Shown here in pieces: positions 5,437 to 51,593 of a stretch of DNA of 64,000 nucleotides. The translations under genes were made by a program, and so were the position numbers. Position 1 is the stretch's first letter. Every line of letters begins with the position of its first letter. The notes beneath the pieces were generated by a model. It saw only the letters and a program-made list of their open reading frames with translations, made no database searches and had not been told where the DNA came from. The stretch lies in contig CM000434.1 of NCBI GenBank assembly GCA_000165345.1, positions 928,001-992,000 of the forward strand, read 5' to 3'.

Positions 5437-5504
5437 CACGTGTTTTTCCCGCCAATTGCATGCAAGTAAAAAAAGTGGCAAATTGCATGCAGTGACATGC
5501 AAGG
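5437..5504. promoter_or_regulatory. Divergent promoter (small secreted gene / PDE): CACGTG, TTTCCCGCCAA (E2F-like), and three (T)GCATGCA(G/A) boxes
   Basis: cacgtg at 5437-5442, tttcccgccaa at 5445-5455, ttgcatgcaag at 5456-5466, ttgcatgcag at 5483-5492, acatgcaagg at 5495-5504. Confidence 0.55.
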
Positions 5505-38277: not shown

Positions 38278-38337
38278 CCCGCCCAAAAATGTTGTGGGGT
38301 ATTTTCATTTATGCAAAGCTGCATGCAACACGTAATA
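38278..38337. promoter_or_regulatory. Ndc80 upstream region: CCCGCCCAAAAA E2F-like box plus the 17-mer GCATGCAACACGTAATA
   Basis: cccgccc at 38278-38284 and gcatgcaacacgtaata at 38321-38337, about 210-270 bp upstream of the minus-strand ATG at 38068. A further tttgcatgcaaag at 38576-38588 and ggcgggaaattt at 38617-38628 lie about 510-560 bp upstream. Confidence 0.55.
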
Positions 38338-38692
38338 TATTTGAGTATATGACCGCCAAGCATTTGTATAAGGCACATTTGTAAAAAAAAAAAAAGTTAG
38401 AACAGATAACTCAAATAATTATGAATAATAGGGTAGACACATTTTGAATAATTACTTAAAAATATCAATACAGTATTTTACCTTTCAAAACTAAACTAGG
38501 CTTAAATTAATTAATAAAATTGAAATTCAATCCATCTGCAAGAGCATTAATTTTATTATATAATATATATTTCATTTGCATGCAAAGCAAAATAACTAAA
38601 ATTGCATACAAAATCAGGCGGGAAATTTAGTGAATTAAAATGCACACAAATGATTATTGAGCTTTAATTGGCAAAAAATTGGGATTTTTTGT

Positions 38693-41600
38693 TTACCACA
38701 AGTCTACATCAATATCCAGATCAGTAAGTGCCACATTTGTATCATCAGCTTGGTTGGAAACCTCTTGTAAGAATGCTGGAGTTTGTACTTCTCCTTCATT
38801 CGCAAACCAGCTTGCCATTTCATCAAGTTTACTGGTTTTGACAGCATTCGCCTTTGGCGCCATATTTACTGTCAATTTTTGCTTTTGTAATGTAGGTCTG
38901 GATTCTGTTGTTCCTCGTTTAGGTTGGGAAACTGATTTCTTTTCTGATAGTTTAAGCTTGACTGTGCTTGCGCTCTTTTCTCTCTTTGCGAGATTTTCTT
39001 GCTTTTGTTTTAATCTTCGTTCTTCATCCAACTTTGTTTTACGTACGAGATCTACTGATGAAATGAAATTCCATAATACACGGAAATAATCTGGCCAAAC
39101 AATTCTTTGAATCGTATTTTGCGGTTCTCCCAAGTATAGTGCCATCTTTTCTAGATTTTCTTTAACACTTTTCATAGTTGCTACTAAATCTTCAATTCTA
39201 GGCTCAGTATCGGAAACAAAGTCTGCTAGAATCTTAGCAATGGGATCCTTTTCTCCCATAGGGCCGGCTCTCTCATTACTTTTCTGAGCTGATTTCATTG
39301 TATCTGTGACCTTATTTAAAGATCCATTCAGTGATTGAATTTCACCTTCAATAGCACCTAAATCGCATTTGGCTGCTTTCTCTACTAAAGCCAATGGCTC
39401 TGCCAAAGAAAGCAATTCTGGCTTATCTCTCCAAATAATCTCTGTGATATATTGAAGCAAAGTTTTAATAGGTTTAGTACTCGAACGAACTTCACATAAC
39501 TTTGATAGTGAACTCATTCTAAAACCTTTAGCTTCTCCCTTTTCTGTATTAAGATTCAAAACATTACCAACTGAAAGAATTATAGAAAATACTTTCTTAA
39601 GCTTTGAATTTGTCTTAATTTCGTTGCAAACTGTAATAATCTCTTGTAAAGGCGTCATTAATTCATTAAAGGAATTGTCAAACGAAAGAATAAACAGCTG
39701 AGCGTTCAAACGAGCGCCAAACATTGGAATACCAATCATTGCAGCTATAAATTGTTCAGGCTTATCCAACTGAGTCAAGTCACCTCCTGCATCAATATAC
39801 TCTTTTACGATTGCAAACTCTTCTGGAGTTGGGGTCATTAAAATCAAAGCTTCTGTAGCTTCTGTATCCAAAATCTTCTTATCAAGATCCAATATAGCAT
39901 CACGCAATTGTTGGAATGTATATGCACTGAACTTTGATAATGCAATACTTATATTGTATGCTCTCTTTGAGTCTGGTAAAATTTGCATGACCTTTGGCTT
40001 CTTTGTCGCCTCTGTCGCCTTCTTTGGTTTTGCTGATTCGATACCAAATACTTCCTCCAAATTTCCGAAATCCAACTTGATTGGTTCTTTAATATCCCAA
40101 ATTGTACCTTGAATATTCTCAACCTTATCCCAATGTAACTTCTTTGTCTTCGATTCTGGACCACTTGGCTTACTTCCTGTCTTTCCTCCAAATTTCCCTG
40201 CCTTTCCTTTTGGGGGTCCTTTTCCTGTTGGGGGTCCTTTCCCACCTGGTGGTCCTTTTCCCCCTGGAGGACCCTTTCCTCCTGGAGGTCCTTTCCCTTT
40301 CCCTGGTGGGCCCTTTCCTTTTGCTGGCGGCGTGCCCTTTGCCGGTGGCGCGCCCTTTGCCGGTGGCGCGCCCTTTGCTTCTGCTGGTTCTGCCTTTGGT
40401 TCTGTAGGAGCACCTTCTTTTGCTTGCGGTGGCGGAGATTTGTTAATAATGTTGTCCATTTTCCCAATACCATCCAGCAATCCAGATAATGCCTTTCCTG
40501 ACTTTACACCTGCTCCTACAATACCTGTGTATACCCCTCCATCCGAAGGTTTGTATTGAATCATTGAGCTAATAAGGGCGCCAACTCCGCTACCTTTAAG
40601 AAGTTCTATCACACCCTGTGAATCAGGAGAAGGAAGTCCCCATTTTGCTGATGCTGTAAGAGCAATTCTAGTTGAAGCGCATACAAATGGCTCAAGATCG
40701 ATCACATAAGGCAACTTTGTTACTACGTTACCCCCATCATCTAAAAATGAAATGCATGCAAGTCTTTCATTACCAGATTCTTCTACATCAGGTTTTGCTC
40801 CTTTAATCTTTGCTAAAATATCATCTGGAGGAAGTTGTTGATCGATACCTACTATCTGAGTCTGAGTTACTTTAACTTGTTTAGCCTCCTCCTTATCTTT
40901 ATTTCTTTGTCTAACTAAAGGAATCAATGCATTTGGAATCCATATTGATTCTTTGAAATAAGCCTTCATTTCTTCCTTACCTGCATAATCTACTAATGGC
41001 AAATAAAATGGTAAACCTGTACTCTCATCTTTTTCTATTTGAGTTAACAACTTCCCTTCTGGAGTTATACAAGGTTCTGGAATCTCCCATTTCTCCAAAA
41101 CTGTCTGAGCTTCTTCATTTATCATCATTGTCACTGACTGCTCTCCCATAACTGGGAATCCTCTTGTTAACTTTGGAATGTTTATTATAGGTAACTTCTT
41201 TCTTTCTGTCTTACTAAATGGAGGAAGAGAAAGCATTGTAGAAACTCCTAGATAGTCTGGACCTGTAATTCTTACTTTCAAGTGAGGTAAAATTGCTGTT
41301 GAACTCACTGTCATACTCTGAAATGACTCTCCATGTAGTGCTCTGATTCTTGAAGTGCATAAAAGTTGTTGAGTTTGGTTATTTGAAAATGGGGTACTTC
41401 TATTTAACCCTCTCAAATTCTTTGGATCAAATAAAAAAGTCTCCAATTGTCGATACCTTAATTGATCAATACTTGGACAAATTGGACTTGCTAATAATGG
41501 TGATTCCTCATACATTATTCTTGTTAATTTACTTGATTTTCCTAAGGTATCGGTAATTATTTCTTTTAAAGATCTCTCTGCTCTTGATTCTAGTGATTCT

Positions 41601-43609
41601 CTTGCATCAATACACTTGTTCTGAAGCTCATGAGCTATATAAGAGTCTGTACAACTGCTTACATTCTCTGTTAAGTATACTTGGGTATCTGCATCTAATA
41701 AAGTTATCAATTCTAATACATATCTTGTATCAGGATGATCAAATCCTAAGTTCTCTCTTCTATATTTATAAACCTCATTATAAAGCTCTAAAGCATATCT
41801 AAAGTTTCCAGCCTGGTGAAAAATACATCCCAAAGCTAGTATATTGTCTTGTACTAATGGAAACTCTCTGTTATTGTAGATCCTCATTAACATATCTAAA
41901 GCTACCATTATATGTTGTACTCCTTGTCTACAATCTCCAAGTAATCGATAAACTAATCCCAAATTTGAATAGCAATCAGCTACACGAGGATGAGGTGGAT
42001 TCTTATTATGATCTCCCAGAACCTGTTTTCTGATTTCCAGACAATTATGTAACATTTCCTTACATTTTTCAAAATTCTTTATTCTGAAATAGTAACTTGC
42101 TGCTGTAGAGTATGCATCACTCATAACTAAGTCTCCTGAACCATAAACTTCATTTACTAATGAAAGATATTTTTCAAGGTAAAATGCTGATGATGTATGA
42201 TCTCTATACATACTACATAGATCAGAGACTGTTAGTACCAGACTACATAATACTGAAGAATCACATGAAACTGATGGTCCTACAGCTGTAACATTTTGAG
42301 TTGAACCTCCAGATCCTGATAAATTTGAGATATTGCTAATATGAGAAGAATCATTTTTTGCATTTTTATTCTCAGAATTGCGATCTGCAACAGCTAAGAT
42401 GGTATTTTCCACAAGAAATCGAAGCTCTTTAAGATATTGTTCTCCTTTACGTAATTCTCCTGTTAAACCACAACATTTAGCAATAATGATTAATTCTACA
42501 ACCATTATACCTTCTAATGGGTGTCCAAGGTACTTGGATAGAAAAGCTCGAGATATTTCATAACAATGTAAAGCATTCAGCATGGCATCTGAGTATTGAG
42601 CTTTCAAAAACTTCTCTAAAGCTGAGCTTCTTAGTCTTTGAATGATTCTTTGAATTTCATGTATTTCTCCATCTCCACGTGATTCTTCAAGACGTTGTAA
42701 AAGAAGAAGGGAATCTGTCATAATTTCAAACTTCTCATTAACAATTTGAGGTCTGGCTTTTGTTGTTTGTCCAAATAAGAGATTATTCTTTTCAGAAGTT
42801 GTTAGTGTAAAGTGTCTACTTGCAAACTCTTCTTTAAATGTTTGACTTAAAGCTGCTAGTGAGTGTTCAGCAGCTTCTGTTAATGCTGGATCCAATACAC
42901 TTACGTGTAGATTAAACATATCATCTTCTCTTTGAGAAATTCGAGCATTTCTTCCTTCTTTTTTTTTCAAGTTACTTTTTCCAGGAGCTTTATCTTGGAA
43001 AAGTAGACGTTTAATAGGGCCAACATCAAAAGGAAGAGTTGATTCAACAAAGGTACTTCTATTACTTAATTCTGAGTAACGTCCATCTTTAGAGAGATTG
43101 TTCTTCAATAGTTTAGATTCACCATTAATAGTGGTTGCAGTAGAAGATGCTCCTGTTGAGCTGGAAGGTAGACTACTAGCTTTGGAATCTTTACTTATAC
43201 TTTTCAGAACAGTTTTTGCTGAGGCTGGCTTTGATGGTACGCTTACTGGAGGAGCGTGACCATTGGATACTGGTGTATCATTTAAAGGTTCTGATGAATT
43301 TTTAGGTATTGGGGCCTTTGGGGCTGGTTTTAATGCAGTAGGAGGTCCTTTTGAGACCTTTGGACCAGGAGGAGAGGGTGATGGAGAAGCTGACTTTGGT
43401 GGAGGTGGTGTTGATGGTTTTGGTGGAGGTGGGGATGATGGTTTTGGTGGAGGAGATTCTGAAAGGTTTGGAGAAGGAGTTGAAGATAATTTTGAAGGTG
43501 GTGGAATTTTCGTTGCTGGTTTCCCTCCAAGTGGTTTAGCAGGGGGAGGCGGTTTTTTTCCACCAGGAGGAGAAAGAGGAGCCTTGCCTGGCACACCCAA
43601 TTTTTTCAT
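38693..43609 (-). CDS. Formin (FH1 poly-Pro/Gly region plus FH2 domain) with a Pro-rich N-terminus and a TPR-like helical-repeat region (1638 aa)
   Basis: FH1: GAPPAKGAPPAKGTPPAKGKGPPGKGKGPPGGKGPPGGKGPPGGKGPPTGKGPP. It is followed immediately by FH2 (KKLHWDKVENIQGTIWD..., MQILPDSKRAYNISIALSKF, GNVLNLNTEKGEAKGFRMSSLSKL). The N-terminal region has TPR-like repeats (ADCYSNLGLVYRLLGDCRQGVQHIMVALDMLMRIY) and a PPPPKPSTPPPPK tract. Confidence 0.85.
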   Translation of the reverse strand: MKKLGVPGKAPLSPPGGKKPPPPAKPLGGKPATKIPPPSKLSSTPSPNLSESPPPKPSSPPPPKPSTPPPPKSASPSPSPPGPKVSKGPPTALKPAPKAPIPKNSSEPLNDTPVSNGHAPPVSVPSKPASAKTVLKSISKDSKASSLPSSSTGASSTATTINGESKLLKNNLSKDGRYSELSNRSTFVESTLPFDVGPIKRLLFQDKAPGKSNLKKKEGRNARISQREDDMFNLHVSVLDPALTEAAEHSLAALSQTFKEEFASRHFTLTTSEKNNLLFGQTTKARPQIVNEKFEIMTDSLLLLQRLEESRGDGEIHEIQRIIQRLRSSALEKFLKAQYSDAMLNALHCYEISRAFLSKYLGHPLEGIMVVELIIIAKCCGLTGELRKGEQYLKELRFLVENTILAVADRNSENKNAKNDSSHISNISNLSGSGGSTQNVTAVGPSVSCDSSVLCSLVLTVSDLCSMYRDHTSSAFYLEKYLSLVNEVYGSGDLVMSDAYSTAASYYFRIKNFEKCKEMLHNCLEIRKQVLGDHNKNPPHPRVADCYSNLGLVYRLLGDCRQGVQHIMVALDMLMRIYNNREFPLVQDNILALGCIFHQAGNFRYALELYNEVYKYRRENLGFDHPDTRYVLELITLLDADTQVYLTENVSSCTDSYIAHELQNKCIDARESLESRAERSLKEIITDTLGKSSKLTRIMYEESPLLASPICPSIDQLRYRQLETFLFDPKNLRGLNRSTPFSNNQTQQLLCTSRIRALHGESFQSMTVSSTAILPHLKVRITGPDYLGVSTMLSLPPFSKTERKKLPIINIPKLTRGFPVMGEQSVTMMINEEAQTVLEKWEIPEPCITPEGKLLTQIEKDESTGLPFYLPLVDYAGKEEMKAYFKESIWIPNALIPLVRQRNKDKEEAKQVKVTQTQIVGIDQQLPPDDILAKIKGAKPDVEESGNERLACISFLDDGGNVVTKLPYVIDLEPFVCASTRIALTASAKWGLPSPDSQGVIELLKGSGVGALISSMIQYKPSDGGVYTGIVGAGVKSGKALSGLLDGIGKMDNIINKSPPPQAKEGAPTEPKAEPAEAKGAPPAKGAPPAKGTPPAKGKGPPGKGKGPPGGKGPPGGKGPPGGKGPPTGKGPPKGKAGKFGGKTGSKPSGPESKTKKLHWDKVENIQGTIWDIKEPIKLDFGNLEEVFGIESAKPKKATEATKKPKVMQILPDSKRAYNISIALSKFSAYTFQQLRDAILDLDKKILDTEATEALILMTPTPEEFAIVKEYIDAGGDLTQLDKPEQFIAAMIGIPMFGARLNAQLFILSFDNSFNELMTPLQEIITVCNEIKTNSKLKKVFSIILSVGNVLNLNTEKGEAKGFRMSSLSKLCEVRSSTKPIKTLLQYITEIIWRDKPELLSLAEPLALVEKAAKCDLGAIEGEIQSLNGSLNKVTDTMKSAQKSNERAGPMGEKDPIAKILADFVSDTEPRIEDLVATMKSVKENLEKMALYLGEPQNTIQRIVWPDYFRVLWNFISSVDLVRKTKLDEERRLKQKQENLAKREKSASTVKLKLSEKKSVSQPKRGTTESRPTLQKQKLTVNMAPKANAVKTSKLDEMASWFANEGEVQTPAFLQEVSNQADDTNVALTDLDIDVDLW
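40325..40380 (-). repeat. GC-rich 18-bp tandem repeat (gccctttgccggtggcgc x approximately 2.5) inside the formin FH1 coding region
   Basis: ggcggcgtgccctttgccggtggcgcgccctttgccggtggcgcgccctttgc. This local GC island in an AT-rich genome encodes (GAPPAK)3 on the minus strand. Confidence 0.85.
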
Positions 43610-44286: not shown

Positions 44287-45310
44287 TTATCTAACAAGTT
44301 CCTTTAAAAAATGTTCGTAGTTAAATCCTCCATCATTAGATGGGAAATCCCTAATTAAAAAAAATAGTAAAAATGTTAAAAGCAGGTTGGGGGAGGCTGT
44401 TTGCATGCATTTACTTGCATGGCAAATTATCACTATACCGGCGTACATGCAAGATGTACAAATAGGCGGCATATGGCACGTATTGAAATATATGAACTTA
44501 CTTTAAAAGTATTTCAATTTCTTTATTGGTTAAAACTTCTCCTGTATTAGTTAATAGAGAAGTCAGCTGCTGGCTAGTGATTGATCCAGAGTTCTGTAAT
44601 ATTGGAAGAAATTGATGAATTAGAAATAATATTATAAATAGAAAATGGAGAAGTGGCACAAAGTATATTGAACTTACATTTGAGTCATACGATCTGAAAA
44701 ATTGAACTAGATTTTCAAAAGTGTCTTCTGGATGTACAATAGAATCACAAAATTTTACAAAAGCTTGTAAATCACATGTTTGACCAACACTTGCGACAAA
44801 TCTCTGGACTTCGCTTTCAGATGGCGCTAATCCCTAAAATTAGGAATAAAAGTGATGTTTAATTAATAATAAAAATGGAGTGGAAAACTGACCATTCTTC
44901 TAACAATTTCTCCAATTTTATTGGTTTGAATGGTTGGACCTCCTCCCTATAGTTTAAAAGAGAATAATGGTATTAAAAGATGATATTAAAGATTGCTTGG
45001 GATTAGGAGTTGGGGTTAATATGGCGGAGTAATGCATTTATTTCTCCATTTTACATATCCCAAGGATGACTTGGTAAAAGCTTAACTTACAGCAGCATCT
45101 CTGAATGAAAATTCAATTCTCTCTTTGGACTATAAATATGAAAAAAGAATTAATTTATTTGCAAAAAAAAAAAAAATTAAGTAATGATAATTAATAGTTA
45201 GTCATTTCTATGAGATTCAAGTTTCTTCCCTAGTTTCTCAAAATTCACTAAAGGAAGAAAAAATGGATGGAGCGTAACAATCAAAAGAACTTACAATCTT
45301 GAAAGGTGGC
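44287..45310 (-). CDS. Calmodulin-like / myosin light-chain-like EF-hand protein. Six exons on the minus strand: 45293..45310, 45089..45127, 44893..44946, 44678..44833, 44502..44593, 44287..44350 (140 aa).
   Basis: Hand-spliced translation: MPPFKI|SKERIEFSFRDAA|GGGPTIQTNKIGEIVRRM|GLAPSESEVQRFVASVGQTCDLQAFVKFCDSIVHPEDTFENLVQFFRSYDSN|NSGSITSQQLTSLLTNTGEVLTNKEIEILLK|DFPSNDGGFNYEHFLKELVR*. It aligns with calmodulin ([40 protein letters not shown]...). Donors are GTAAGT x4 and GTCAGT x1, acceptors TAG/CAG, and the frame is maintained across all junctions. Only the last exon appears in the ORF track (44287..44472). Confidence 0.7.
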
Positions 45311-45522
45311 ATCTAAATAACTGTATATAATTATTTTGCTTGCGATCTTCACACAAAATTGATAATCTATAAATTGTCTTTTTTTTTTAACTAAAATAAT
45401 TTGCTCTTGAATTTTTTCCCTCTTTATTTTTCATGCGCTTTTTTCTCTGTATAATAAAATCTTTATTTTATTTATTTCAAATATGCCGCCTTTTATTTCA
45501 CGACCAAATGGCAAAGCAGATA

Positions 45523-45558
45523 AAGGCGGGACTTTAGGGCGGGCAAATGTGCATGTTG
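45523..45558. promoter_or_regulatory. Divergent promoter between the two EF-hand genes: two GGCGGG boxes plus GTGCATG
   Basis: aaaggcgggac at 45523-45533 and tttagggcgggcaaatgtgcatgttg at 45534-45559, between the minus-strand ATG at 45310 and the plus-strand ATG at 45878. Confidence 0.5.
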
Positions 45559-45877
45559 AATCTTGTAATGTAAATTTTTCGATACCTTCGAAGTTAAAGA
45601 TTTAATAAAAATAAAAAAATTGTGAGGAATTTCAAAAAAAGAAAATTAAGCAAGAGTTAGAATTTAAATTGTTAAGATAAGAAGAATTTGTGACTGTAAT
45701 TGTTAAATATTGAGATACTGAACCTTTTATTTCTGAGAATTATTAAAGTGTAAGTGTGAGTTAATTTAGGGGACATTGATCAAAGAAAAAAAAGTATTGG
45801 CAAAACTGTTGTAATTGGGTTATTTAAATTTATTCATTTTTTTCTAAAAAAGGAGATTTAAAGTAAGAAAAGTAGAA

Positions 45878-46966
45878 ATGATTTCATTATTAAATGGAAC
45901 AGGATGTGTTTCTTGTACTTCTGGGTGCAAGGTTGTAATTGATGACTACAAAACTACAGGAAGAATAGAATATGGTGTATTTGTAGGATATTATTCTGAA
46001 AGTGAAGAAAGTGATTATGATGAATCAGATGTTGTTACTTTAGATAAGAAGCCTTCAAATATCCAAGATTCATCAAGTGCTGAAGCAGTCTCTATTGAAG
46101 ATGAATTAGAAGAAGGTGAAGCTGATATTATTAGAGAAATGTTTGATAATGCTTCATCTGGAGGAGAATGTTCATTAGATCAGACATGCCATTTAGCACA
46201 TAGAATGGGTCTAGCACCTTCTAAATCAGATCTTGAACAACTTAACGAAGAAACTGGTGGAAAAGTAACTTATGAAGATTTTGAAAGGTGGATTATGTCA
46301 ATTACACATCCAGAAGACCATATTGATTATATGGTTTCATACTTCAGAAAGTACGATTTGAGAGGAAATGGCAAGATTTCAAGACAGCAATTCATTTGGT
46401 TAACAAGTATTGGCGGTGATATTCTTACCAGAGAAGAAGCTGAAGCTATTCTTGATAAGTTGTCCATTGGAGGAGATGTGTACTATGAAGATTTACTCAG
46501 AAAAATTATGGATGTCGAAGCTTCTGATAAGCCTATGGTAAATATTGGAAACAAGAAATCAACGCCTACAAAAATGCCAACAACTAAAGTACTTGTGACA
46601 CAAGTTTCGACTACCATAAGAGATTTAGCTGATAATGAAGCATTCCTTCCTACTATTGATCTTCTTATGGCTTTAAAAGCAACCTATGGAAATGAATTAA
46701 CTGAAGCAGCTGCAAAAGAAGCCACAGATTGTTGTGAAAATCAGGATGAAGCTGCTAAATGTTTACAAGAATTCTACTCAGAGTGGGCACAAAATAAAGG
46801 TATGGTTTCTAGAAAAATTGTTAGAAGTCTACTTATGGTCTGGAAGGCTAAGTTAGACCAGGTTAGTGCTGAGGCTTGGATTACAAGCTTATGTGGAACC
46901 GATGAAAATATTGATATTCAAAGTGTTTTGAACAAGGTAGAATGCAAAACTAACGAGATAAACTAA
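45878..46966 (+). CDS. EF-hand domain protein (362 aa) with a central four-EF-hand calmodulin-like module; paralog of the adjacent multi-exon gene
   Basis: Shared blocks with the neighbouring gene: HRMGLAPSKSDLEQL vs RRMGLAPSESEVQRF, and SITHPEDHIDYMVSYFRKYD vs SIVHPEDTFENLVQFFRSYD. An EF-hand-loop-like DLRGNGKISRQQF is present. Intronless, with N- and C-terminal extensions. Confidence 0.65.
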   Translation: MISLLNGTGCVSCTSGCKVVIDDYKTTGRIEYGVFVGYYSESEESDYDESDVVTLDKKPSNIQDSSSAEAVSIEDELEEGEADIIREMFDNASSGGECSLDQTCHLAHRMGLAPSKSDLEQLNEETGGKVTYEDFERWIMSITHPEDHIDYMVSYFRKYDLRGNGKISRQQFIWLTSIGGDILTREEAEAILDKLSIGGDVYYEDLLRKIMDVEASDKPMVNIGNKKSTPTKMPTTKVLVTQVSTTIRDLADNEAFLPTIDLLMALKATYGNELTEAAAKEATDCCENQDEAAKCLQEFYSEWAQNKGMVSRKIVRSLLMVWKAKLDQVSAEAWITSLCGTDENIDIQSVLNKVECKTNEIN

Positions 46967-47080: not shown

Positions 47081-47152
47081 TGCATGCATGCAATTAATAT
47101 TTTTTTTTAAAATTTGTGCAAATATTAACATATACCGGAGATTAGGCGCCAA
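47081..47152. promoter_or_regulatory. Promoter motif cluster upstream of the 47265 gene: TGCATGCATGCAAT, TATACCGG, GGCGCCAA
   Basis: tgcatgcatgcaat at 47081-47094, tataccgg at 47131-47138, ggcgccaa at 47145-47152, about 110-180 bp upstream of the ATG. Confidence 0.5.
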
Positions 47153-47264: not shown

Positions 47265-50200
47265 ATGAATGGAGGATTTAGGGGGAGAAACCATAATGTA
47301 ACAGAAGATCATTTGAATTACAATATACCAAATAACTCTATACAACCACAATATGTGAATGGCACGTCAACCCATGCTCTTGGAATCCAAGAAGCAACTA
47401 ATCTTACAAATTTAAGGGGAAATTTTATGGGGAATGATGGTTCTGACTATATTCCAGTTCAATTAAGAGCTGCTAATACTAATTTAAATACCAATCATTC
47501 CATTAGTCAGAATGTAAACCAGACAACCTATGGACAAAATCTCTATGATATTAATAGAAACGCTCCTGGACAAATGGGAACAAAGAGCTTTGGAGGATCA
47601 AGAATGGGAGTTGCTCAATCTAAGGGGATGGCTCACACTCAGCAAATTGGTATGCAGTATGGTGATTCTATGCAAAATGGGAATCAAGGCGCCAATATTG
47701 GAGCCATGCATGACTCTAATATTGCTTCTTATGGTGTTGCAGAAATGAGTTATAGGAGTGGAAATAGCAGTAGTAGTATTGGTAGTCAGGGTGTACATAA
47801 TAACATTGATTCCTCTGCTAATACTCAAAATGTCGATATCCACGATATTTCTATCCAGAATTCCTATATGAGTTCACAATCACAACCTAGAACAGTATCA
47901 AAATCGAGATCCATATCACATACTAGAACACAATCTCAGCCTGTAGCTATGGTTCATCAGCACCAATATCAACAACAACAGCAGCAACAGGTTCAACACC
48001 TTAATCATCAACAATACTTTCACTCTCAACAACAGCAGCAGCAGCGTATGCAGACCTTTTCTCAGTCTCAGACTCAGAACCAGACCCAAACTAAGACTCA
48101 GGCCCAAATCCATTCTCAGTCTCATTCCCAATCCCATGTTAAAGCCCCAAATCAGACTCAAACTCAAACTCAGGTTCATTCTCAAACCCAAATCCTATCT
48201 CAATCCCAGCCTCAATCTCGCTCTCATCTTCAGTCTCAGAGTTTGCCAGGTCCACAGTCCCAGACTTATTTTAGCCATACTCAGCCAAATAACAACATGC
48301 AGCCTCCTTCTCACCCGAGAACTCAACCATTACCACATCCCTACTCCCAAGGAAACCCAGGACATCAAGTATCATCTCAAAACTTCTCCAGTTCAAGCAT
48401 TCATCCAAATTTAGTATCAGCTCAAGGATCTCACGCACAAAAAAACTTCCAAAGCTTTTCATCTTCTAATATTAATCAGAGACAAATTGGAGACAATTTG
48501 AAAAATCCAAACCATGGAATTAATGTTGGACCTAATTCTATTTATACAAAAATAGATGATACCGGGGTGGGAACATCAGGAGTAGGAGGCAGTCAGTATA
48601 GGTCGAAGCCTTACTCTCAACAGAGTAATAAATACACTCATCAGCAACAAATGAATCCAGTAAACTCAATATTGCATCCAAACTATTCTCAATCTTACTC
48701 ACAGGGTTCTTCATCTAATTTAGGTGGATTGACAGAGACAGATTCTAAGACAATGTCACAATATATATCAACAATTGGATACAAGACAAGTAACATAGAT
48801 TTGGGAGTTTGTAGCTTTCAAGTCAACGTTCCAAACAATATTTCAGATGAATTAAGAAATTCTATTATTAGATTGGTTCCAAAAGAACAGCTCAACTCGG
48901 TATTTTTCCTTGTTTCATCATTAATTAGCAAGAGTATCAATTTTAGAGACTTTCATGTTCGTTTAATAGCTATTTTGAGGAGTAGTCAACTTGTTGAAAT
49001 TCTTGAAAATATGCTCAGAGATTACTTCCAACTAAGTACCTCTTCTTCAAATACAAATTACACTGGAATTGCTATTCATCAAGGTATCTCAGATTTAAGA
49101 GGTCAAATTTCTCATCCAATTACTACTAATAGCCAAGTTTCTGCAGGAAGATCTGACTATTTATTGGCATCACAATCTCAATACACATCTGGAATAGGCT
49201 CTAATAGTCAAATATATGATGGTACATTATTGAACTCTATGATTTCTCATGCTCACTCAAAAAAGTCTATTAGTAGACATGGAGGACATTATAATATGCA
49301 TGCAAAAGAGGATATATTATTACAGATGTTGAAACATGCAAGATCTAAATCTGTTGCAAGCTTTATAGGTATTGATATGACTGGACCTTCTTCTTATATT
49401 TCTAAAATAATCTCAAATAAAACTATACAAAACAAATCTATGGTATTGGAAGAAGAATCAATATCTCCAGAAACTCTTAATATTTATACGGAAAAACTTA
49501 ATAATTATGGTCGATACCTCCTTTCTTGTGATAGTTCACTTAACTTAGAATTTATGAATTCAAATCAACAATCTGTTACTTCTAAATTAGGGAAAATAGT
49601 TAAGTTTGGTACTCAGCCAGATTTAGAAAAATCAGTTTTCTCAAGTCAAGCAGTAAAGACAATCCATAAGTTAGCATCTTTCTATGTTAGGGATATACTG
49701 AAGTTCATCCTTAATGAGGAAAGTATAAGTAATGATAAGCTGAATGGTAAAGATCTTGAAGAAGAAGAAGAAGAAGAAGAAGAAAAAGGAAAAAAAAGGG
49801 AAGAGATACAACATAATCAAAGGGGACAAAGTGATCGTCAAATTATTGATGATCTGATTGGAAATAGTAATAGTATACAAGTTCAAAAAATGGAGAATTC
49901 AAAAACTGTTAGCCTTATATCTAAAGACTCAAGCTCTAATAATTCATGTAATTTTGGAATGGGTAAATCTATTGGAGGAAAAGGTCTGGGAATGAAGTTA
50001 ACTTTATCTGGTAACGTTTCCTCTGTAAAACCCATAATGATTACTAGTCTATGGTCATGTATATACAAATCCTTACGTTATAATATGAATAGATATAATG
50101 CATGCGAACCTAATGCTTTCCATAATATAATAATTAAGAATCGTCCAGGACATTCTAAAGAACAATGTTCGAATTATATTCTAATTCCAGAGTCAATGTA

Positions 50201-50267
50201 TAGAAGTGTTGAATCCTGGCTTCTTTCAAATGCTTATAATCAATGGGATAAACTTAGTATATTATAA
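47265..50267 (+). CDS. Gln/Ser/Asn-rich low-complexity protein (1000 aa), possibly a transcription-related factor
   Basis: Long ORF. The N-terminal half is polyQ and QSQ/QTQ repeats. A conserved-looking helical island (ISDELRNSIIRLVPKEQLNSVFFLVSSLISKSINFRDFHVRLIAILRSSQLVEILENMLRDYFQ) is weakly reminiscent of TAF4-type helical domains; this is not a confident assignment. Poly-E (GAA)n lies at about 49757-49781. Confidence 0.6.
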   Translation: MNGGFRGRNHNVTEDHLNYNIPNNSIQPQYVNGTSTHALGIQEATNLTNLRGNFMGNDGSDYIPVQLRAANTNLNTNHSISQNVNQTTYGQNLYDINRNAPGQMGTKSFGGSRMGVAQSKGMAHTQQIGMQYGDSMQNGNQGANIGAMHDSNIASYGVAEMSYRSGNSSSSIGSQGVHNNIDSSANTQNVDIHDISIQNSYMSSQSQPRTVSKSRSISHTRTQSQPVAMVHQHQYQQQQQQQVQHLNHQQYFHSQQQQQQRMQTFSQSQTQNQTQTKTQAQIHSQSHSQSHVKAPNQTQTQTQVHSQTQILSQSQPQSRSHLQSQSLPGPQSQTYFSHTQPNNNMQPPSHPRTQPLPHPYSQGNPGHQVSSQNFSSSSIHPNLVSAQGSHAQKNFQSFSSSNINQRQIGDNLKNPNHGINVGPNSIYTKIDDTGVGTSGVGGSQYRSKPYSQQSNKYTHQQQMNPVNSILHPNYSQSYSQGSSSNLGGLTETDSKTMSQYISTIGYKTSNIDLGVCSFQVNVPNNISDELRNSIIRLVPKEQLNSVFFLVSSLISKSINFRDFHVRLIAILRSSQLVEILENMLRDYFQLSTSSSNTNYTGIAIHQGISDLRGQISHPITTNSQVSAGRSDYLLASQSQYTSGIGSNSQIYDGTLLNSMISHAHSKKSISRHGGHYNMHAKEDILLQMLKHARSKSVASFIGIDMTGPSSYISKIISNKTIQNKSMVLEEESISPETLNIYTEKLNNYGRYLLSCDSSLNLEFMNSNQQSVTSKLGKIVKFGTQPDLEKSVFSSQAVKTIHKLASFYVRDILKFILNEESISNDKLNGKDLEEEEEEEEEKGKKREEIQHNQRGQSDRQIIDDLIGNSNSIQVQKMENSKTVSLISKDSSSNNSCNFGMGKSIGGKGLGMKLTLSGNVSSVKPIMITSLWSCIYKSLRYNMNRYNACEPNAFHNIIIKNRPGHSKEQCSNYILIPESMYRSVESWLLSNAYNQWDKLSIL

Positions 50268-51126: not shown

Positions 51127-51155
51127 TTGCATGTGCCCGCCCAAAATGGCCCGCC
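51127..51155. promoter_or_regulatory. Divergent UBC2 / RPL10 promoter: TGCATGTG plus tandem E2F-like GC boxes (CCCGCCCAAAATGGCCCGCC)
   Basis: ttgcatgtgcccgcccaaaatggcccgcc at 51127-51155, lying between UBC2 (minus, ATG at 50875) and RPL10 (plus, ATG at 51594). Confidence 0.5.
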
Positions 51156-51593
51156 TAAAGACGAGTATATAAAAATGTCTCAATTATAGATGATTAAGAT
51201 TAATTAATATTGAATGAGAGAAAGGTTGGTTGTTAAATAATAAAAAAAAGGTGAATAAAAAATAAAAAGACGAGACAACATAAATAATAAATAAAGGAAA
51301 TAATAGAAATTAATTAGGGTATATATATAGTGATTAAAAGAAGTGTATAGAGAACAAATAATTAAAGAATACACAAATAAATATAAATATAAATAAAAAA
51401 TAAGTTGATATTTATATAGGGTAAGGAATAAGTACTAAATAACATTTGAAATAGGAAATATATAGAAAATAAATTATACGTGTCGATTTTCGACTAAATT
51501 ACGAAACGTAAAATTTAAGGGAAAAAATAGCAATAGATCATCCAAAGTATTAATTATTATTTCTTTTAATTGATATTATTTGGAAGAGAAACA

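What the first reader, a model, noticed from the sequence alone, without database searches (positions are those of the whole stretch)
44287..46966. Head-to-head paralogous EF-hand gene pair with contrasting structures (6-exon versus intronless and extended)
The minus-strand multi-exon EF-hand gene and the plus-strand intronless 362-aa gene share clearly homologous blocks (RMGLAPS[EK]S[ED], S[IV][VT]HPED, FRxYD) and a 568-bp divergent promoter carrying two GGCGGG boxes. This is a local tandem-inverted duplication in which one copy has lost or never gained introns and acquired an acidic N-terminal extension and a C-terminal tail. It could be a retro-copy event or light-chain diversification (essential versus regulatory light-chain-like).
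Basis: partly seen in the sequence, partly recalled or inferred. Interest (0 to 1): 0.5.

Follow-up and report, generated by a model that had tools for sequence, protein, structure and literature searches.

The report
Two divergently transcribed Cryptosporidium myosin light chains
This is a head-to-head pair of annotated Cryptosporidium parvum genes for two old, distinct members of the parasite-specific MTIP/MLC1 myosin light-chain family, and the "tail" of the larger protein is itself a hidden third, degenerate light-chain domain.

Summary
The window is C. parvum chromosome 6. A 6-exon, 140-aa gene lies on the minus strand (identical to CPATCC_002990). An intronless 362-aa gene lies on the plus strand (cgd6_4160 / CPATCC_002991, named MLC1 in sister species). 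They are 565 bp apart, head to head, and share 33% identity over 123 aa. The shared blocks (GLAPS, HPED, FxxYD) are not generic EF-hand consensus. They are the signature of the whole apicomplexan MTIP/MLC1 light-chain family, not of this pair.

- The plus gene is the MLC1/MTIP orthologue. Its N-terminal Cys-rich and acidic extension is ancestral, not acquired.
- The minus gene is a short member without that extension. Its nearest named relative is TgMLC4, with weak support. It is not ELC-like.
- The two genes are as far from each other as each is from its Toxoplasma counterpart, and the arrangement holds across the genus. A recent duplication or a retrocopy is therefore not supported.
- Four of the five minus-gene introns sit at the exact position and phase of introns in TgMLC4, Cystoisospora MLC1 or a Babesia homologue. 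They are ancestral, and the plus gene lost its introns.

The new point is that the plus C-terminal tail is a strongly conserved, degenerate second MTIP-type domain. The functions of both proteins are inferred, not shown.

The parts
44287..45312 (-). Six-exon gene (CPATCC_002990, the cgd6_4155-type model). It encodes a 140-aa MTIP/MLC1-family light chain without an N-terminal extension. Exons: 45312-45295, 45129-45091, 44946-44893, 44833-44678, 44593-44502, 44350-44287.
   Evidence: All splice sites are GT..AG and the frame closes at 423 nt. The product is identical to annotated QOY41303.1. Pfam gives EF-hand_7 at 1.9e-9 and MTIP_N at 1.8e-4, which is below the curated cut-off. The best solved relative of the family profile is TgMLC4 at 75.5 bits.
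44351..45294 (-). Five introns of the minus gene: 45294-45130, 45090-44947, 44892-44834, 44677-44594, 44501-44351. Introns 2 to 5 are ancestral.
   Evidence: Intron 2 (phase 0) matches TgMLC4 intron 2. Intron 3 (phase 0) matches TgMLC4 intron 3 and the single intron of the Babesia gibsoni homologue. Intron 4 (phase 0) and intron 5 (phase 2, after an identical 92-nt exon) match Cystoisospora suis MLC1 introns 1 and 2. All matches fall in the same alignment columns. The same intron positions are seen in C. ryanae and C. serpentis.
45313..45877 (.). Shared divergent intergenic region (565 bp, 25.7% GC), the presumed bidirectional promoter.
   Evidence: The two start codons face away from each other. 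The length equals the C. parvum mean intergenic length of 552 bp (PMC4637869). The head-to-head arrangement is conserved in C. ryanae and C. serpentis.
45525..45555 (+). Conserved cis-module: GGCGGG (45525-45530), GGCGGG (45538-45543) and TGCATG (45550-45555).
   Evidence: The order and spacing are conserved in C. ryanae (GCGGGC..GGCGGGCAA..TGCATG) and C. serpentis (GCGGGA..GGCGCCAA..TGCATG), although the flanks have diverged. Both motif types are strongly over-represented in the window. Both are published C. parvum upstream motifs, namely the G-box/E2F-like motif and the AP2 cgd2_3490 site (PMC3734150).
45878..46966 (+). Intronless gene cgd6_4160 / CPATCC_002991, encoding the 362-aa Cryptosporidium MLC1/MTIP orthologue.
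   Evidence: It is 100% identical to EAK90019.1, and orthologues are named MLC1 in C. felis and chipmunk genotype I. Pfam MTIP_N scores 49.8 bits against a cut-off of 27. The best PDB hits are TgMLC1 and PfMTIP at 6e-17, with the next family at 1e-8. Foldseek's top 15 hits are all MLC1 or MTIP.
45878..46111 (+). N-terminal extension. Residues 1-40 carry conserved Cys10, Cys13 and Cys17 and the RIEYGVFVGYYS motif. Residues 41-78 form a poorly conserved acidic linker.
   Evidence: The Cys residues and the motif are invariant in 10 Cryptosporidium orthologues. They align with the N-terminal Cys plus [ED]Y[GF]x[WF]xP[GA] motif of coccidian and gregarine MLC1-type proteins. Identity between C. parvum and C. 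serpentis is 55% for residues 1-40 and 16% for the linker.
46112..46513 (+). Core MTIP/MLC1 light-chain domain (residues 79-212), the region homologous to the minus gene.
   Evidence: BLASTP against the minus protein gives 33% over 123 aa. The plus-core HMM scores TgMLC1 at 86.6 bits, TgMLC4 at 31.8 and TgELC1/2 at 19-22. There is no canonical EF loop.
46592..46933 (+). C-terminal 'tail' (residues 239-352), a second, degenerate MTIP/MLC1-type light-chain-like domain.

Best explanation
The locus encodes two different light chains of the apicomplexan-specific MTIP/MLC1 family. They are transcribed outwards from one conserved 565-bp promoter.

The plus gene is the Cryptosporidium orthologue of TgMLC1/PfMTIP. 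By homology (inferred):
- its acylatable Cys-rich N-terminal extension anchors myosin A to the inner membrane complex;
- its Ca2+-independent core clamps the MyoA tail.

The plus protein also carries a strongly conserved second, degenerate MTIP-type domain at its C-terminus. This makes it a tandem 'double light chain'. I infer that this module binds a second helical (IQ-like) segment. The most likely target is the neck position next to the MLC1 site, because the C-terminus of a bound light chain points towards the motor-proximal IQ.

The minus gene is a short, slowly evolving family member without the anchoring extension. Its closest named relative is TgMLC4, the light chain of the myosin-like protein MyoL in the preconoidal ring. 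It most likely serves as a soluble light chain of a class XIV myosin or of MyoL.

The two genes are old paralogues. Their divergence is comparable to the Cryptosporidium-coccidia split. They are not a recent inverted duplication and not a retrocopy. The minus gene kept at least four ancestral introns in an otherwise intron-poor genome, and the plus gene lost all of its introns.

Shown here: the gene models, family membership, domain homology of the tail, intron homology, synteny across the genus and the conserved promoter motifs. Inferred: binding partners, localisation and co-regulation.
For: - Identity of genes and organism.
- Plus gene is MLC1/MTIP: Pfam MTIP_N above its cut-off; PDB hits TgMLC1 and PfMTIP far above all others; Foldseek; core HMM scores TgMLC1 at 86.6 bits and TgMLC4 at 31.8; homologous N-terminal extension.
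- Minus gene: its profile's best PDB hit is TgMLC4 at 75.5 bits, against TgMLC1 at 61.6 and calmodulin at 62.1. The NJ tree places it sister to coccidian MLC4. The MLC4 HMM scores minus proteins (74-91 bits) above every other non-MLC4 target. The ELCs are excluded.
- Old divergence: pairwise bit scores and identities; minus-plus clade at 7% bootstrap; the formin / short light chain / MLC1 synteny is present in C. ryanae and C. serpentis.
- Ancestral introns: exact column and phase matches to TgMLC4, C. suis MLC1 and the B. gibsoni homologue.
- Tail as a second light-chain domain.
- Promoter module conserved across three species. It is made of published motif types.
- TgMLC4 as a MyoL light chain, and MyoL conserved in Cryptosporidium: bioRxiv 10.64898/2026.01.06.697858.
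Against: - The MLC4 assignment is weak. Bootstrap support for an exclusive minus+MLC4 clade is 19%, and the sister group contains all three MLC4 sequences in 42% of replicates.
- Minus proteins score higher on the coccidian MLC3 HMM (92-104 bits) and on the broad MLC1-type HMM (112-130 bits) than on the MLC4 HMM.
- TgMLC2, TgMLC5, TgMLC6 and TgMLC7 could not be identified among the unnamed database hits.
- A full reciprocal search of the C. parvum proteome was not possible.
- The plus core scores about as well on the minus-family HMM (75-94 bits) as on the coccidian MLC1 HMM (84-95 bits). Sequence alone therefore does not exclude a stem-Cryptosporidium duplication.
- No expression, localisation or binding data were available.
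Confidence: 0.72

Rival explanations
1. One reading: a local inverted duplication of MLC1 in the Cryptosporidium stem lineage. One copy (minus) then lost the N-terminal extension and kept the introns. The other copy (plus) lost its introns and gained the tail.
For: - The two genes are physically adjacent and head to head.
- The plus core scores as well on the minus-family HMM as on the coccidian MLC1 HMM.
- The minus gene shares two introns with C. suis MLC1.
- The phylogeny is poorly resolved.
- The tail shows that MLC1-type domains did duplicate locally at this locus.
Against: - The minus+plus clade has only 7% bootstrap support, and the best tree puts minus with MLC4 and plus inside the N-extension MLC1 clade.
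- The minus profile prefers TgMLC4 over TgMLC1 by 14 bits.
- MLC4 is far closer to minus (77 bits) than to plus (39-42 bits).
- Minus shares two further introns, and the CDLxxFxxFC block, with MLC4 and not with C. suis MLC1.
- Paralogue divergence equals the cross-phylum orthologue divergence.
Confidence: 0.15
2. The intronless plus gene is a retro-copy (processed copy) of the intron-containing minus gene.
For: One copy has five introns and the other has none.
Against: - The plus gene has an ancestral N-terminal extension and a second domain that are absent from the supposed parent.
- It is the clear MLC1/MTIP orthologue.
- It sits next to the supposed parent and shares a conserved promoter in every species examined, rather than at a random insertion site.
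- About 89% of C. parvum genes lack introns (PMC4637869), so lacking introns is the default state.
- RT-mediated intron loss in situ cannot be excluded, but that is not retro-copying.
Confidence: 0.03
3. Functional rival: the minus protein is the essential-light-chain equivalent of Cryptosporidium MyoA. Under this model the locus encodes both MyoA light chains, co-expressed stoichiometrically from one bidirectional promoter.
For: - The head-to-head arrangement and the promoter module are conserved across the genus.
- The minus protein has the size and extension-less architecture of an ELC.
- ELCs are poorly conserved between lineages, so the position could be filled by a different EF-hand protein. 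This point rests on my own knowledge.
- The MLC4 orthology is weak.
Against: - TgELC1 and TgELC2 are calmodulin-like with canonical Ca2+ loops. They score only 35.5 and 28.5 bits on the minus profile.
- The closest named relative, TgMLC4, binds MyoL, not MyoA.
- The plus protein's own C-terminal light-chain-like module is an alternative candidate for the second neck site.
Confidence: 0.25
4. The C-terminal tail of the plus protein is an unrelated helical domain, and its resemblance to light chains is convergent or spurious.
For: - Foldseek E-values are not significant (>= 0.38).
- Pfam finds nothing.
- The PDB sequence hits have E 0.04-0.16.
Against: Four independent methods converge on MTIP specifically:
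- HHalign gives E 3.7e-10 and probability 96.7% against MLC1-type domains. It fails against calmodulin and in the reversed-sequence controls.
- The alignment with the protein's own core is colinear.
- Six of the seven PDB sequence hits are MTIPs.
In addition, the AF2 model shows two helix-strand-helix units typical of an EF pair.
Confidence: 0.08

Closest known systems
TgMLC1 / PfMTIP (myosin A light chain of the glideosome; PDB 6tj5_B, 5vt9, 2qac, 6ycx_D; Pfam PF21550 MTIP_N)
   Same: The plus gene has the MTIP_N plus EF-hand-pair core, the GLAPS / THPED / FxxYD signature and no canonical Ca2+ loops. It also has an N-terminal extension with cysteines near the N-terminus, an aromatic motif and an acidic linker.
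   Different: The Cryptosporidium protein is about 150 residues longer. It carries a second, degenerate MTIP-type domain at the C-terminus, which was not found in any non-Cryptosporidium hit. It is intronless, whereas Cystoisospora MLC1 has three introns. Core identity to TgMLC1 is only about 30%.
TgMLC4 (TGME49_294390; light chain of the myosin-like protein MyoL in preconoidal ring P2, PDB 9ya0_QA)
   Same: It is the best solved match of the minus-family profile at 75.5 bits. It shares the GLAPSE, CDLxxFxxFC and VHxED blocks. Two introns are shared at identical column and phase. It is the NJ sister group. MyoL is reported to be conserved in Cryptosporidium.
   Different: Identity is only 35% and the alignment is confident over residues 6-114 only. 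TgMLC4 has an N-terminal leader of about 25 residues that the minus protein lacks. Bootstrap support is weak and HMM cross-scores are equivocal. TgMLC4 is not adjacent to an MLC1 gene in T. gondii.
TgELC1 / TgELC2 / PfELC (essential light chains of MyoA; PDB 6tj5_A, 6tj7_A, 6zn3_A)
   Different: The ELCs are calmodulin-like. TgELC1 scores 124 bits against calmodulin and has two canonical EF loops. They lack the GLAPS and HPED signature and score only 28-35 bits on the minus profile.
C. parvum promoter motifs: G-box / GGCGGG, E2F-like GGCGCC and the AP2 site TGCATGCA (Oberstaller et al. 2013, PMC3734150)
   Same: The intergenic module consists of exactly these published motif types. The motifs are enriched 9- to 19-fold in this window.
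   Different: Here they form a fixed composite (two G-boxes 13 bp apart plus TGCATG). The composite is conserved across three species at this locus and recurs at 51128-51157. Whether it drives both genes has not been tested.

Membership tests
MTIP/MLC1 myosin light-chain family (Pfam PF21550 MTIP_N + EF-hand pair) | MTIP_N domain above Pfam's curated cut-off (27 bits) | tested here: met
   The plus protein scores 49.8 bits, E 4.3e-13. The minus protein scores 22.2 bits, E 1.8e-4, below the cut-off. Strict Pfam membership therefore holds for plus only. The minus protein is placed in the family by its profile hits to TgMLC4 and TgMLC1 and by the shared signature blocks.
MTIP/MLC1 myosin light-chain family (Pfam PF21550 MTIP_N + EF-hand pair) | Closest solved relatives are MLC1 or MTIP rather than calmodulin, centrin or troponin | tested here: met
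   For plus, TgMLC1 and PfMTIP give 6e-17 to 3e-14, and the next family (centrin) gives 1.8e-8. For the minus profile, TgMLC4 scores 75.5 bits, followed by calmodulin at 62.1 and TgMLC1 at 61.6.
MTIP/MLC1 myosin light-chain family (Pfam PF21550 MTIP_N + EF-hand pair) | Degenerate EF-hands with no canonical Ca2+-binding loop | tested here: met
   The pattern D-x-[DNS]-x-[DNSG]-G-x-[ILVFM]-x3-[ED] occurs 0 times in minus, plus and TgMLC4. It occurs 4 times in calmodulin and 2 times in TgELC1.
MLC1/MTIP subtype (IMC-anchored MyoA light chain) | N-terminal extension with acylatable cysteines and a conserved aromatic motif, followed by an acidic linker | tested here: met
   The plus protein has Cys10, Cys13 and Cys17 and RIEYGVFVGYYS, invariant in 10 species, aligned to the ELNYFMWMPGFEW / FLDYGLFIPGSEF type motifs. 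The minus protein has no extension, so the feature is not met for minus.
MLC1/MTIP subtype (IMC-anchored MyoA light chain) | Binds the C-terminal tail of myosin A and localises to the pellicle | not testable with these tools
   No CpMyoA sequence, interaction data or localisation data were accessible. No paper in the library mentions cgd6_4160 or cgd6_4155.
MLC4 orthologue group (MyoL light chain) | Reciprocal closest relationship to TgMLC4 in a supported phylogeny | tested here: inconclusive
   In favour: the best PDB hit, the NJ sister position, and the MLC4 HMM ranking minus first among non-MLC4 targets. Against: bootstrap 19% (exclusive clade) or 42% (sister group contains all three MLC4 sequences), and minus scoring higher on the MLC3 and MLC1-type HMMs. 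The full C. parvum proteome was not searchable.
MLC4 orthologue group (MyoL light chain) | Shared gene structure | tested here: inconclusive
   Two of the five minus introns coincide with two of the four TgMLC4 introns. However, one of these is also in the Babesia homologue, and two other minus introns coincide with C. suis MLC1. These are shared ancestral characters and do not diagnose the group.
Essential light chain (TgELC1/2, PfELC) | Calmodulin-like sequence with at least one functional EF loop and closest similarity to the ELCs | tested here: not met
   The minus profile scores TgELC1 at 35.5 bits and TgELC2 at 28.5 bits, against TgMLC4 at 75.3. The minus protein has no canonical loop.
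Retrocopy (processed gene copy) | The intronless copy is colinear with, and derived from, the spliced mRNA of the intron-bearing parent and lacks the parent's regulatory context | tested here: not met
   The plus gene has extra ancestral domains. It is orthologous to MLC1 rather than derived from minus. It shares a conserved promoter with minus in three species.
Bidirectional (divergent) promoter pair | Head-to-head starts less than 1 kb apart with conserved shared cis-elements | tested here: met
   The spacer is 565 bp. The GGCGGG-GGCGGG-TGCATG module is conserved in C. ryanae and C. serpentis.
Bidirectional (divergent) promoter pair | Correlated expression of the two genes | not testable with these tools
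   No transcriptome data are available in the tool set.

The most novel reading that the evidence does not exclude
Cryptosporidium MLC1 is a fused two-module light chain. Its conserved C-terminal MTIP-like domain occupies the second (ELC) site on the MyoA neck, so one polypeptide stiffens the whole lever arm. The neighbouring 6-exon gene supplies the light chain for the preconoidal myosin-like MyoL. Under this reading, one conserved bidirectional promoter co-ordinates the light chains of the two motility and invasion myosin systems.
Probability: 0.2. Interest if true: 0.6.

Novelty: new variant of a known kind. Interest (0 to 1): 0.4.

Why it matters
Myosin A and its light chains are drug targets in apicomplexans, and a MyoA inhibitor is already active against C. 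parvum (PMC13416249). The light-chain complement of the Cryptosporidium motor has not been described in the literature I could search.

Three points follow from this analysis:
- The Cryptosporidium MLC1 orthologue carries a second, highly conserved light-chain-like module. This predicts a lever-arm architecture different from the ELC plus MLC1/MTIP arrangement solved for Toxoplasma and Plasmodium. It also gives a concrete construct design for structural work.
- The 6-exon gene is a rare case of near-complete retention of ancestral introns in an intron-poor genome. It is mis-modelled in most Cryptosporidium assemblies, which matters for orthology tables and proteomics.
- Apart from these points the locus is ordinary. 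It consists of two annotated genes of a known family with known promoter motif types.

Tried and rejected
1. Word-indexed homologue searches with single proteins and with a 27-sequence family alignment returned almost only Cryptosporidium proteins and gave few names. The exhaustive representative search gave relatives, but most are unnamed Logan assemblies. Two cluster look-ups named only MLC4, MLC3, a Babesia protein, a Lankesteria protein and a few coccidian hypothetical proteins. TgMLC2, TgMLC5, TgMLC6 and TgMLC7 could not be placed.

2. The NJ bootstrap on 137 columns could not resolve deep branches. No ML program was available.

4. Synteny outside the genus:
   - The TgMLC4, C. suis MLC1 and B. 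gibsoni loci show no neighbouring light-chain gene within 3-4 kb.
   - The contig of the closest non-Cryptosporidium relative of plus (P0159) starts 96 bp upstream of the gene and is uninformative.
   - P0077 was not on record.
   - P0038 has no MLC neighbour.

5. I searched for a terminal micro-exon after the GTAAGT donor at the ancestral last-intron position in C. ryanae and C. serpentis. There are many candidate acceptors and none is decisive.

6. A literature search for the gene identifiers found nothing. Papers on the ELCs and on the glideosome say nothing specific about Cryptosporidium light chains.

7. There is no further family member elsewhere in the 64-kb window.


Full report
**What is there**

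The window is Cryptosporidium parvum DNA. The plus-strand ORF at 45878-46966 (362 aa) is 100% identical to the C. parvum Iowa II protein EAK90019.1 / CPATCC_002991. Its orthologues in C. felis and chipmunk genotype I are named myosin light chain MLC1.

On the minus strand I assembled six exons: 45312-45295, 45129-45091, 44946-44893, 44833-44678, 44593-44502 and 44350-44287. All are bounded by GT..AG and together give a 423-nt CDS. The 140-aa product is identical to annotated QOY41303.1 / CPATCC_002990 (locus-tag style CPHLJ_6g4155).

The start codons are 565 bp apart and face away from each other. Two GGCGGG boxes lie at 45525-45530 and 45538-45543. The proteins share 33% identity over 123 residues, E 1e-21. 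Profile-profile comparison gives 99.4% probability.

**What the shared blocks mean**

Neither protein has a canonical EF-hand Ca2+ loop, whereas calmodulin has four and TgELC1 has two. The similarity is therefore not generic EF-hand consensus. They occur in TgMLC1, PfMTIP, TgMLC4, TgMLC3 and in dozens of alveolate sequences recovered by an exhaustive profile search. They identify the family, not a private relationship between these two genes.

**Identity of the plus gene**

- Pfam MTIP_N scores 49.8 bits against a cut-off of 27.
- The best solved relatives are TgMLC1 and PfMTIP at 6e-17 to 3e-14. The next family, centrin, is at 1.8e-8 and TgMLC4 is at 2e-4.
- All top 15 Foldseek hits of the AF2 model are MLC1 or MTIP chains.
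- An HMM of the Cryptosporidium core scores TgMLC1 at 86.6 bits, TgMLC4 at 31.8 and TgELC1/2 at 19-22.
- The N-terminal extension has three invariant cysteines near the N-terminus, an invariant RIEYGVFVGYYS motif and then a poorly conserved acidic linker. It aligns with the Cys plus [ED]Y[GF]x[WF]xP[GA]xE[FWY] extension of coccidian and gregarine MLC1-type proteins.

The extension is therefore ancestral. By homology it is the IMC-anchoring, acylated part of the MyoA light chain. This last step is an inference from what is established for TgMLC1 and PfMTIP.

**The 'tail' is a third light-chain domain**

Residues 239-352 are the most conserved part of the protein. Identity between C. parvum and C. 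serpentis is 68% there, against 54% for the core, and 52% of columns are invariant. Several lines of evidence point to an MTIP-type domain:

- A profile of the tail aligns colinearly with the protein's own core (E 1.6e-4).
- Against a profile of non-Cryptosporidium MLC1-type domains it gives probability 96.7%, E 3.7e-10, over 107 columns.
- Against the MLC4/minus group it gives E 1.2e-5, and against calmodulins E 0.2. Reversed-sequence controls give E >= 0.02.
- Searched against all PDB sequences, six of its seven hits at E <= 10 are MTIPs (E 0.04-0.16).
- A tail-only AF2 model has pLDDT 74-89 across the domain and pTM 0.66. It shows two helix-short strand-helix units, as in an EF pair.
- Foldseek also ranks MTIP first, but without significance.

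I conclude that Cryptosporidium MLC1 is a tandem of a normal MTIP-type domain and a degenerate one that probably lacks the first helix. No non-Cryptosporidium hit showed this architecture, although gregarine genomes could not be checked.

**Identity of the minus gene**

The family profile's best solved match is TgMLC4 (9ya0_QA) at 75.5 bits, ahead of Toxoplasma calmodulin at 62.1 and TgMLC1 at 61.6. TgMLC4 is one of three light chains on the neck of the myosin-like protein MyoL in preconoidal ring P2, and MyoL is reported to be conserved in Cryptosporidium.

Evidence for a link to MLC4:
- NJ trees place the minus family sister to coccidian MLC4, and the plus family inside the clade of MLC1-type proteins with N-terminal extensions.
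- An MLC4 HMM ranks minus proteins first among all non-MLC4 targets.

Evidence that the link is weak:
- Bootstrap support is 19% for an exclusive clade. The sister group contains all three MLC4 sequences in 42% of replicates.
- Minus proteins score higher on the MLC3 and broad MLC1-type HMMs than on the MLC4 HMM. This is expected for a slowly evolving protein compared with a fast-evolving clade, but it does not prove orthology.

The ELC reading is not supported. TgELC1 (sequence verified against 6tj5_A) and TgELC2 are calmodulin-like and reach only 35.5 and 28.5 bits on the minus profile.

**Age and mode of the duplication**

- Minus against plus gives 77-82 bits and 33-36% identity. That equals minus against TgMLC4 (77 bits, 35%) and plus against TgMLC1 (75 bits, 30%). 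The C. parvum-C. serpentis orthologues are 62% (minus) and 54% (plus core) identical.
- A minus+plus clade appears in 7% of bootstrap replicates.
- The order formin(-) / short light chain(-) / MLC1(+) is the same in C. ryanae and in the gastric species C. serpentis. Minus and plus orthologues also lie on the same contigs in five further species.
- In T. gondii, C. suis and B. gibsoni the corresponding genes have no light-chain neighbour within 3-4 kb.

The pairing is therefore at least as old as the genus, and the paralogy is probably as old as the Cryptosporidium-coccidia split. Whether the adjacency is a relic of an ancient tandem duplication or a secondary juxtaposition cannot be decided. 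A stem-Cryptosporidium duplication remains possible at about 15%.

**Introns**

I mapped exons exactly for TgMLC4, C. suis MLC1 and a B. gibsoni homologue and placed the introns on a protein alignment.

| Minus intron | Phase | Position | Matches |
|---|---|---|---|
| 2 | 0 | ..DAA\|GGG.. | TgMLC4 intron 2 |
| 3 | 0 | ..RRM\|GLAPS.. | TgMLC4 intron 3 and the Babesia intron |
| 4 | 0 | ..YDSN\|NSG.. | C. suis MLC1 intron 1 |
| 5 | 2 | after an identical 92-nt exon | C. suis MLC1 intron 2 |

TgMLC4 and C. suis MLC1 share a further phase-2 intron before a 22-nt terminal exon. C. parvum lacks it. C. ryanae and C. serpentis have a GTAAGT donor at exactly that column and phase, but the terminal exon could not be assigned.

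At least four of the five introns therefore predate the split of the subfamilies. The minus gene retained them, and the plus gene lost all of its introns in every Cryptosporidium species (intronless in L001 and L002). In C. parvum about 89% of genes have no intron, and intron-containing genes average 2.6 exons (PMC4637869). The unusual gene is therefore the 6-exon one, not the intronless one. A retrocopy origin of the plus gene is contradicted by its extra ancestral domains and by its orthology.

**Promoter**

The 565-bp spacer equals the genome's mean intergenic length of 552 bp. Within it, the GGCGGG - 7 nt - GGCGGGCAA - 3 nt - TGCATG module is conserved in order and spacing. It appears in C. 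ryanae as GCGGGC..GGCGGGCAA..TGCATG and in C. serpentis as GCGGGA..GGCGCCAA..TGCATG, while the flanks are unalignable.

GGCGGG (13 observed against 1.5 expected) and TGCATGCA (18 against 0.9) are strongly enriched in the window. A near-identical composite recurs at 51128-51157. These are the published C. parvum G-box/E2F-like and AP2 (cgd2_3490) motif types (PMC3734150). The boxes are therefore real and conserved but of a common kind. Co-regulation of the two genes is plausible and untested.

**How it most likely works**

The steps are marked as shown or inferred.

Shown:
- The locus encodes two distinct Ca2+-independent light chains of one family.
- One has the anchoring extension and an extra light-chain-like module.
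- The arrangement and the promoter module are conserved.

Inferred:
- The plus protein anchors MyoA to the inner membrane complex and clamps its tail.
- Its C-terminal module binds a second helical segment. Light chains bind antiparallel to the heavy chain, so the C-terminus of MLC1 points towards the motor-proximal IQ. The ELC position on the MyoA neck is therefore the most economical target (probability about 0.2-0.3).
- The minus protein is a soluble light chain. It is either the MyoL/MLC4-type partner (about 0.45) or a neck light chain of MyoA or another class XIV myosin (about 0.25-0.35).

**Verdict**

The interpretation needs correction in most of its evolutionary details. The genes and the family are known and annotated. 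The points that appear new, as far as the searchable literature shows, are:
- the cryptic second MTIP-type domain of Cryptosporidium MLC1;
- the near-complete retention of ancestral introns in its neighbour;
- the genus-wide conservation of the divergent pair and its promoter module.

Interest is moderate.

Noticed in passing
window 51128-51157: A near-identical composite of two G-boxes plus GCATG (reverse orientation: GGCGGGC-N6-GGGCGGGCACATGCAA) lies in the intergenic region after the 47265-50267 ORF. This suggests that the module in the light-chain promoter is a recurrent promoter cassette. GGCGGG also sits next to TGCATGCA at 5448-5464 and near 38278-38327 and 38577-38622.
   Followed up: partly
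L001 4968-5735 (C. serpentis); L002 3406-5318 (C. ryanae); proteins P0013-P0019: Orthologues of the 6-exon gene are mis-modelled in most Cryptosporidium assemblies. The errors include exon skipping, intron read-through and truncation: C. meleagridis 130 aa, C. bovis 168, C. ryanae 239, C. canis 164, C. felis 93, C. ubiquitum 85 and C. serpentis 88 aa. The gene would be missed or split in orthology tables.
   Followed up: partly
L001 ~4977 and L002 ~4243 (minus strand): C. serpentis and C. ryanae have a GTAAGT donor (AAAGA|GTAAGT, phase 2) exactly where TgMLC4 and Cystoisospora MLC1 have their last intron before a 22-nt terminal exon. C. parvum reads straight through to ..FLKELVR*. This is either a sixth retained ancestral intron in those species or simply a stop codon (GAG TAA). 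It remains unresolved.
   Followed up: partly
protein P0077 (XP_053993260.1): An MLC1/MTIP-type light chain with the apicomplexan N-terminal extension is annotated as a protein of the bee Hylaeus volcanicus (LOC128884163). This is most likely apicomplexan (gregarine-like) contamination of that assembly. It groups near the Cryptosporidium MLC1 clade in the NJ trees.
   Followed up: no
window 44402-44409 and 47081-47092: The AP2-type palindrome TGCATGCA lies inside intron 5 of the minus gene. An overlapping double copy (TGCATGCATGCA) lies 115 bp downstream of the plus-gene stop codon, in the spacer before the next gene at 47265.
   Followed up: no
window 38693-43609 (-) and 47265-50267 (+): The flanking genes are a 1638-aa proline-rich formin (FH2 domain by the Pfam mark on the C. 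serpentis orthologue) and a 1000-aa Gln/Ser/Asn-rich low-complexity protein. The formin, another actin-motility gene, stays next to the light-chain pair in C. ryanae and C. serpentis.
   Followed up: partly
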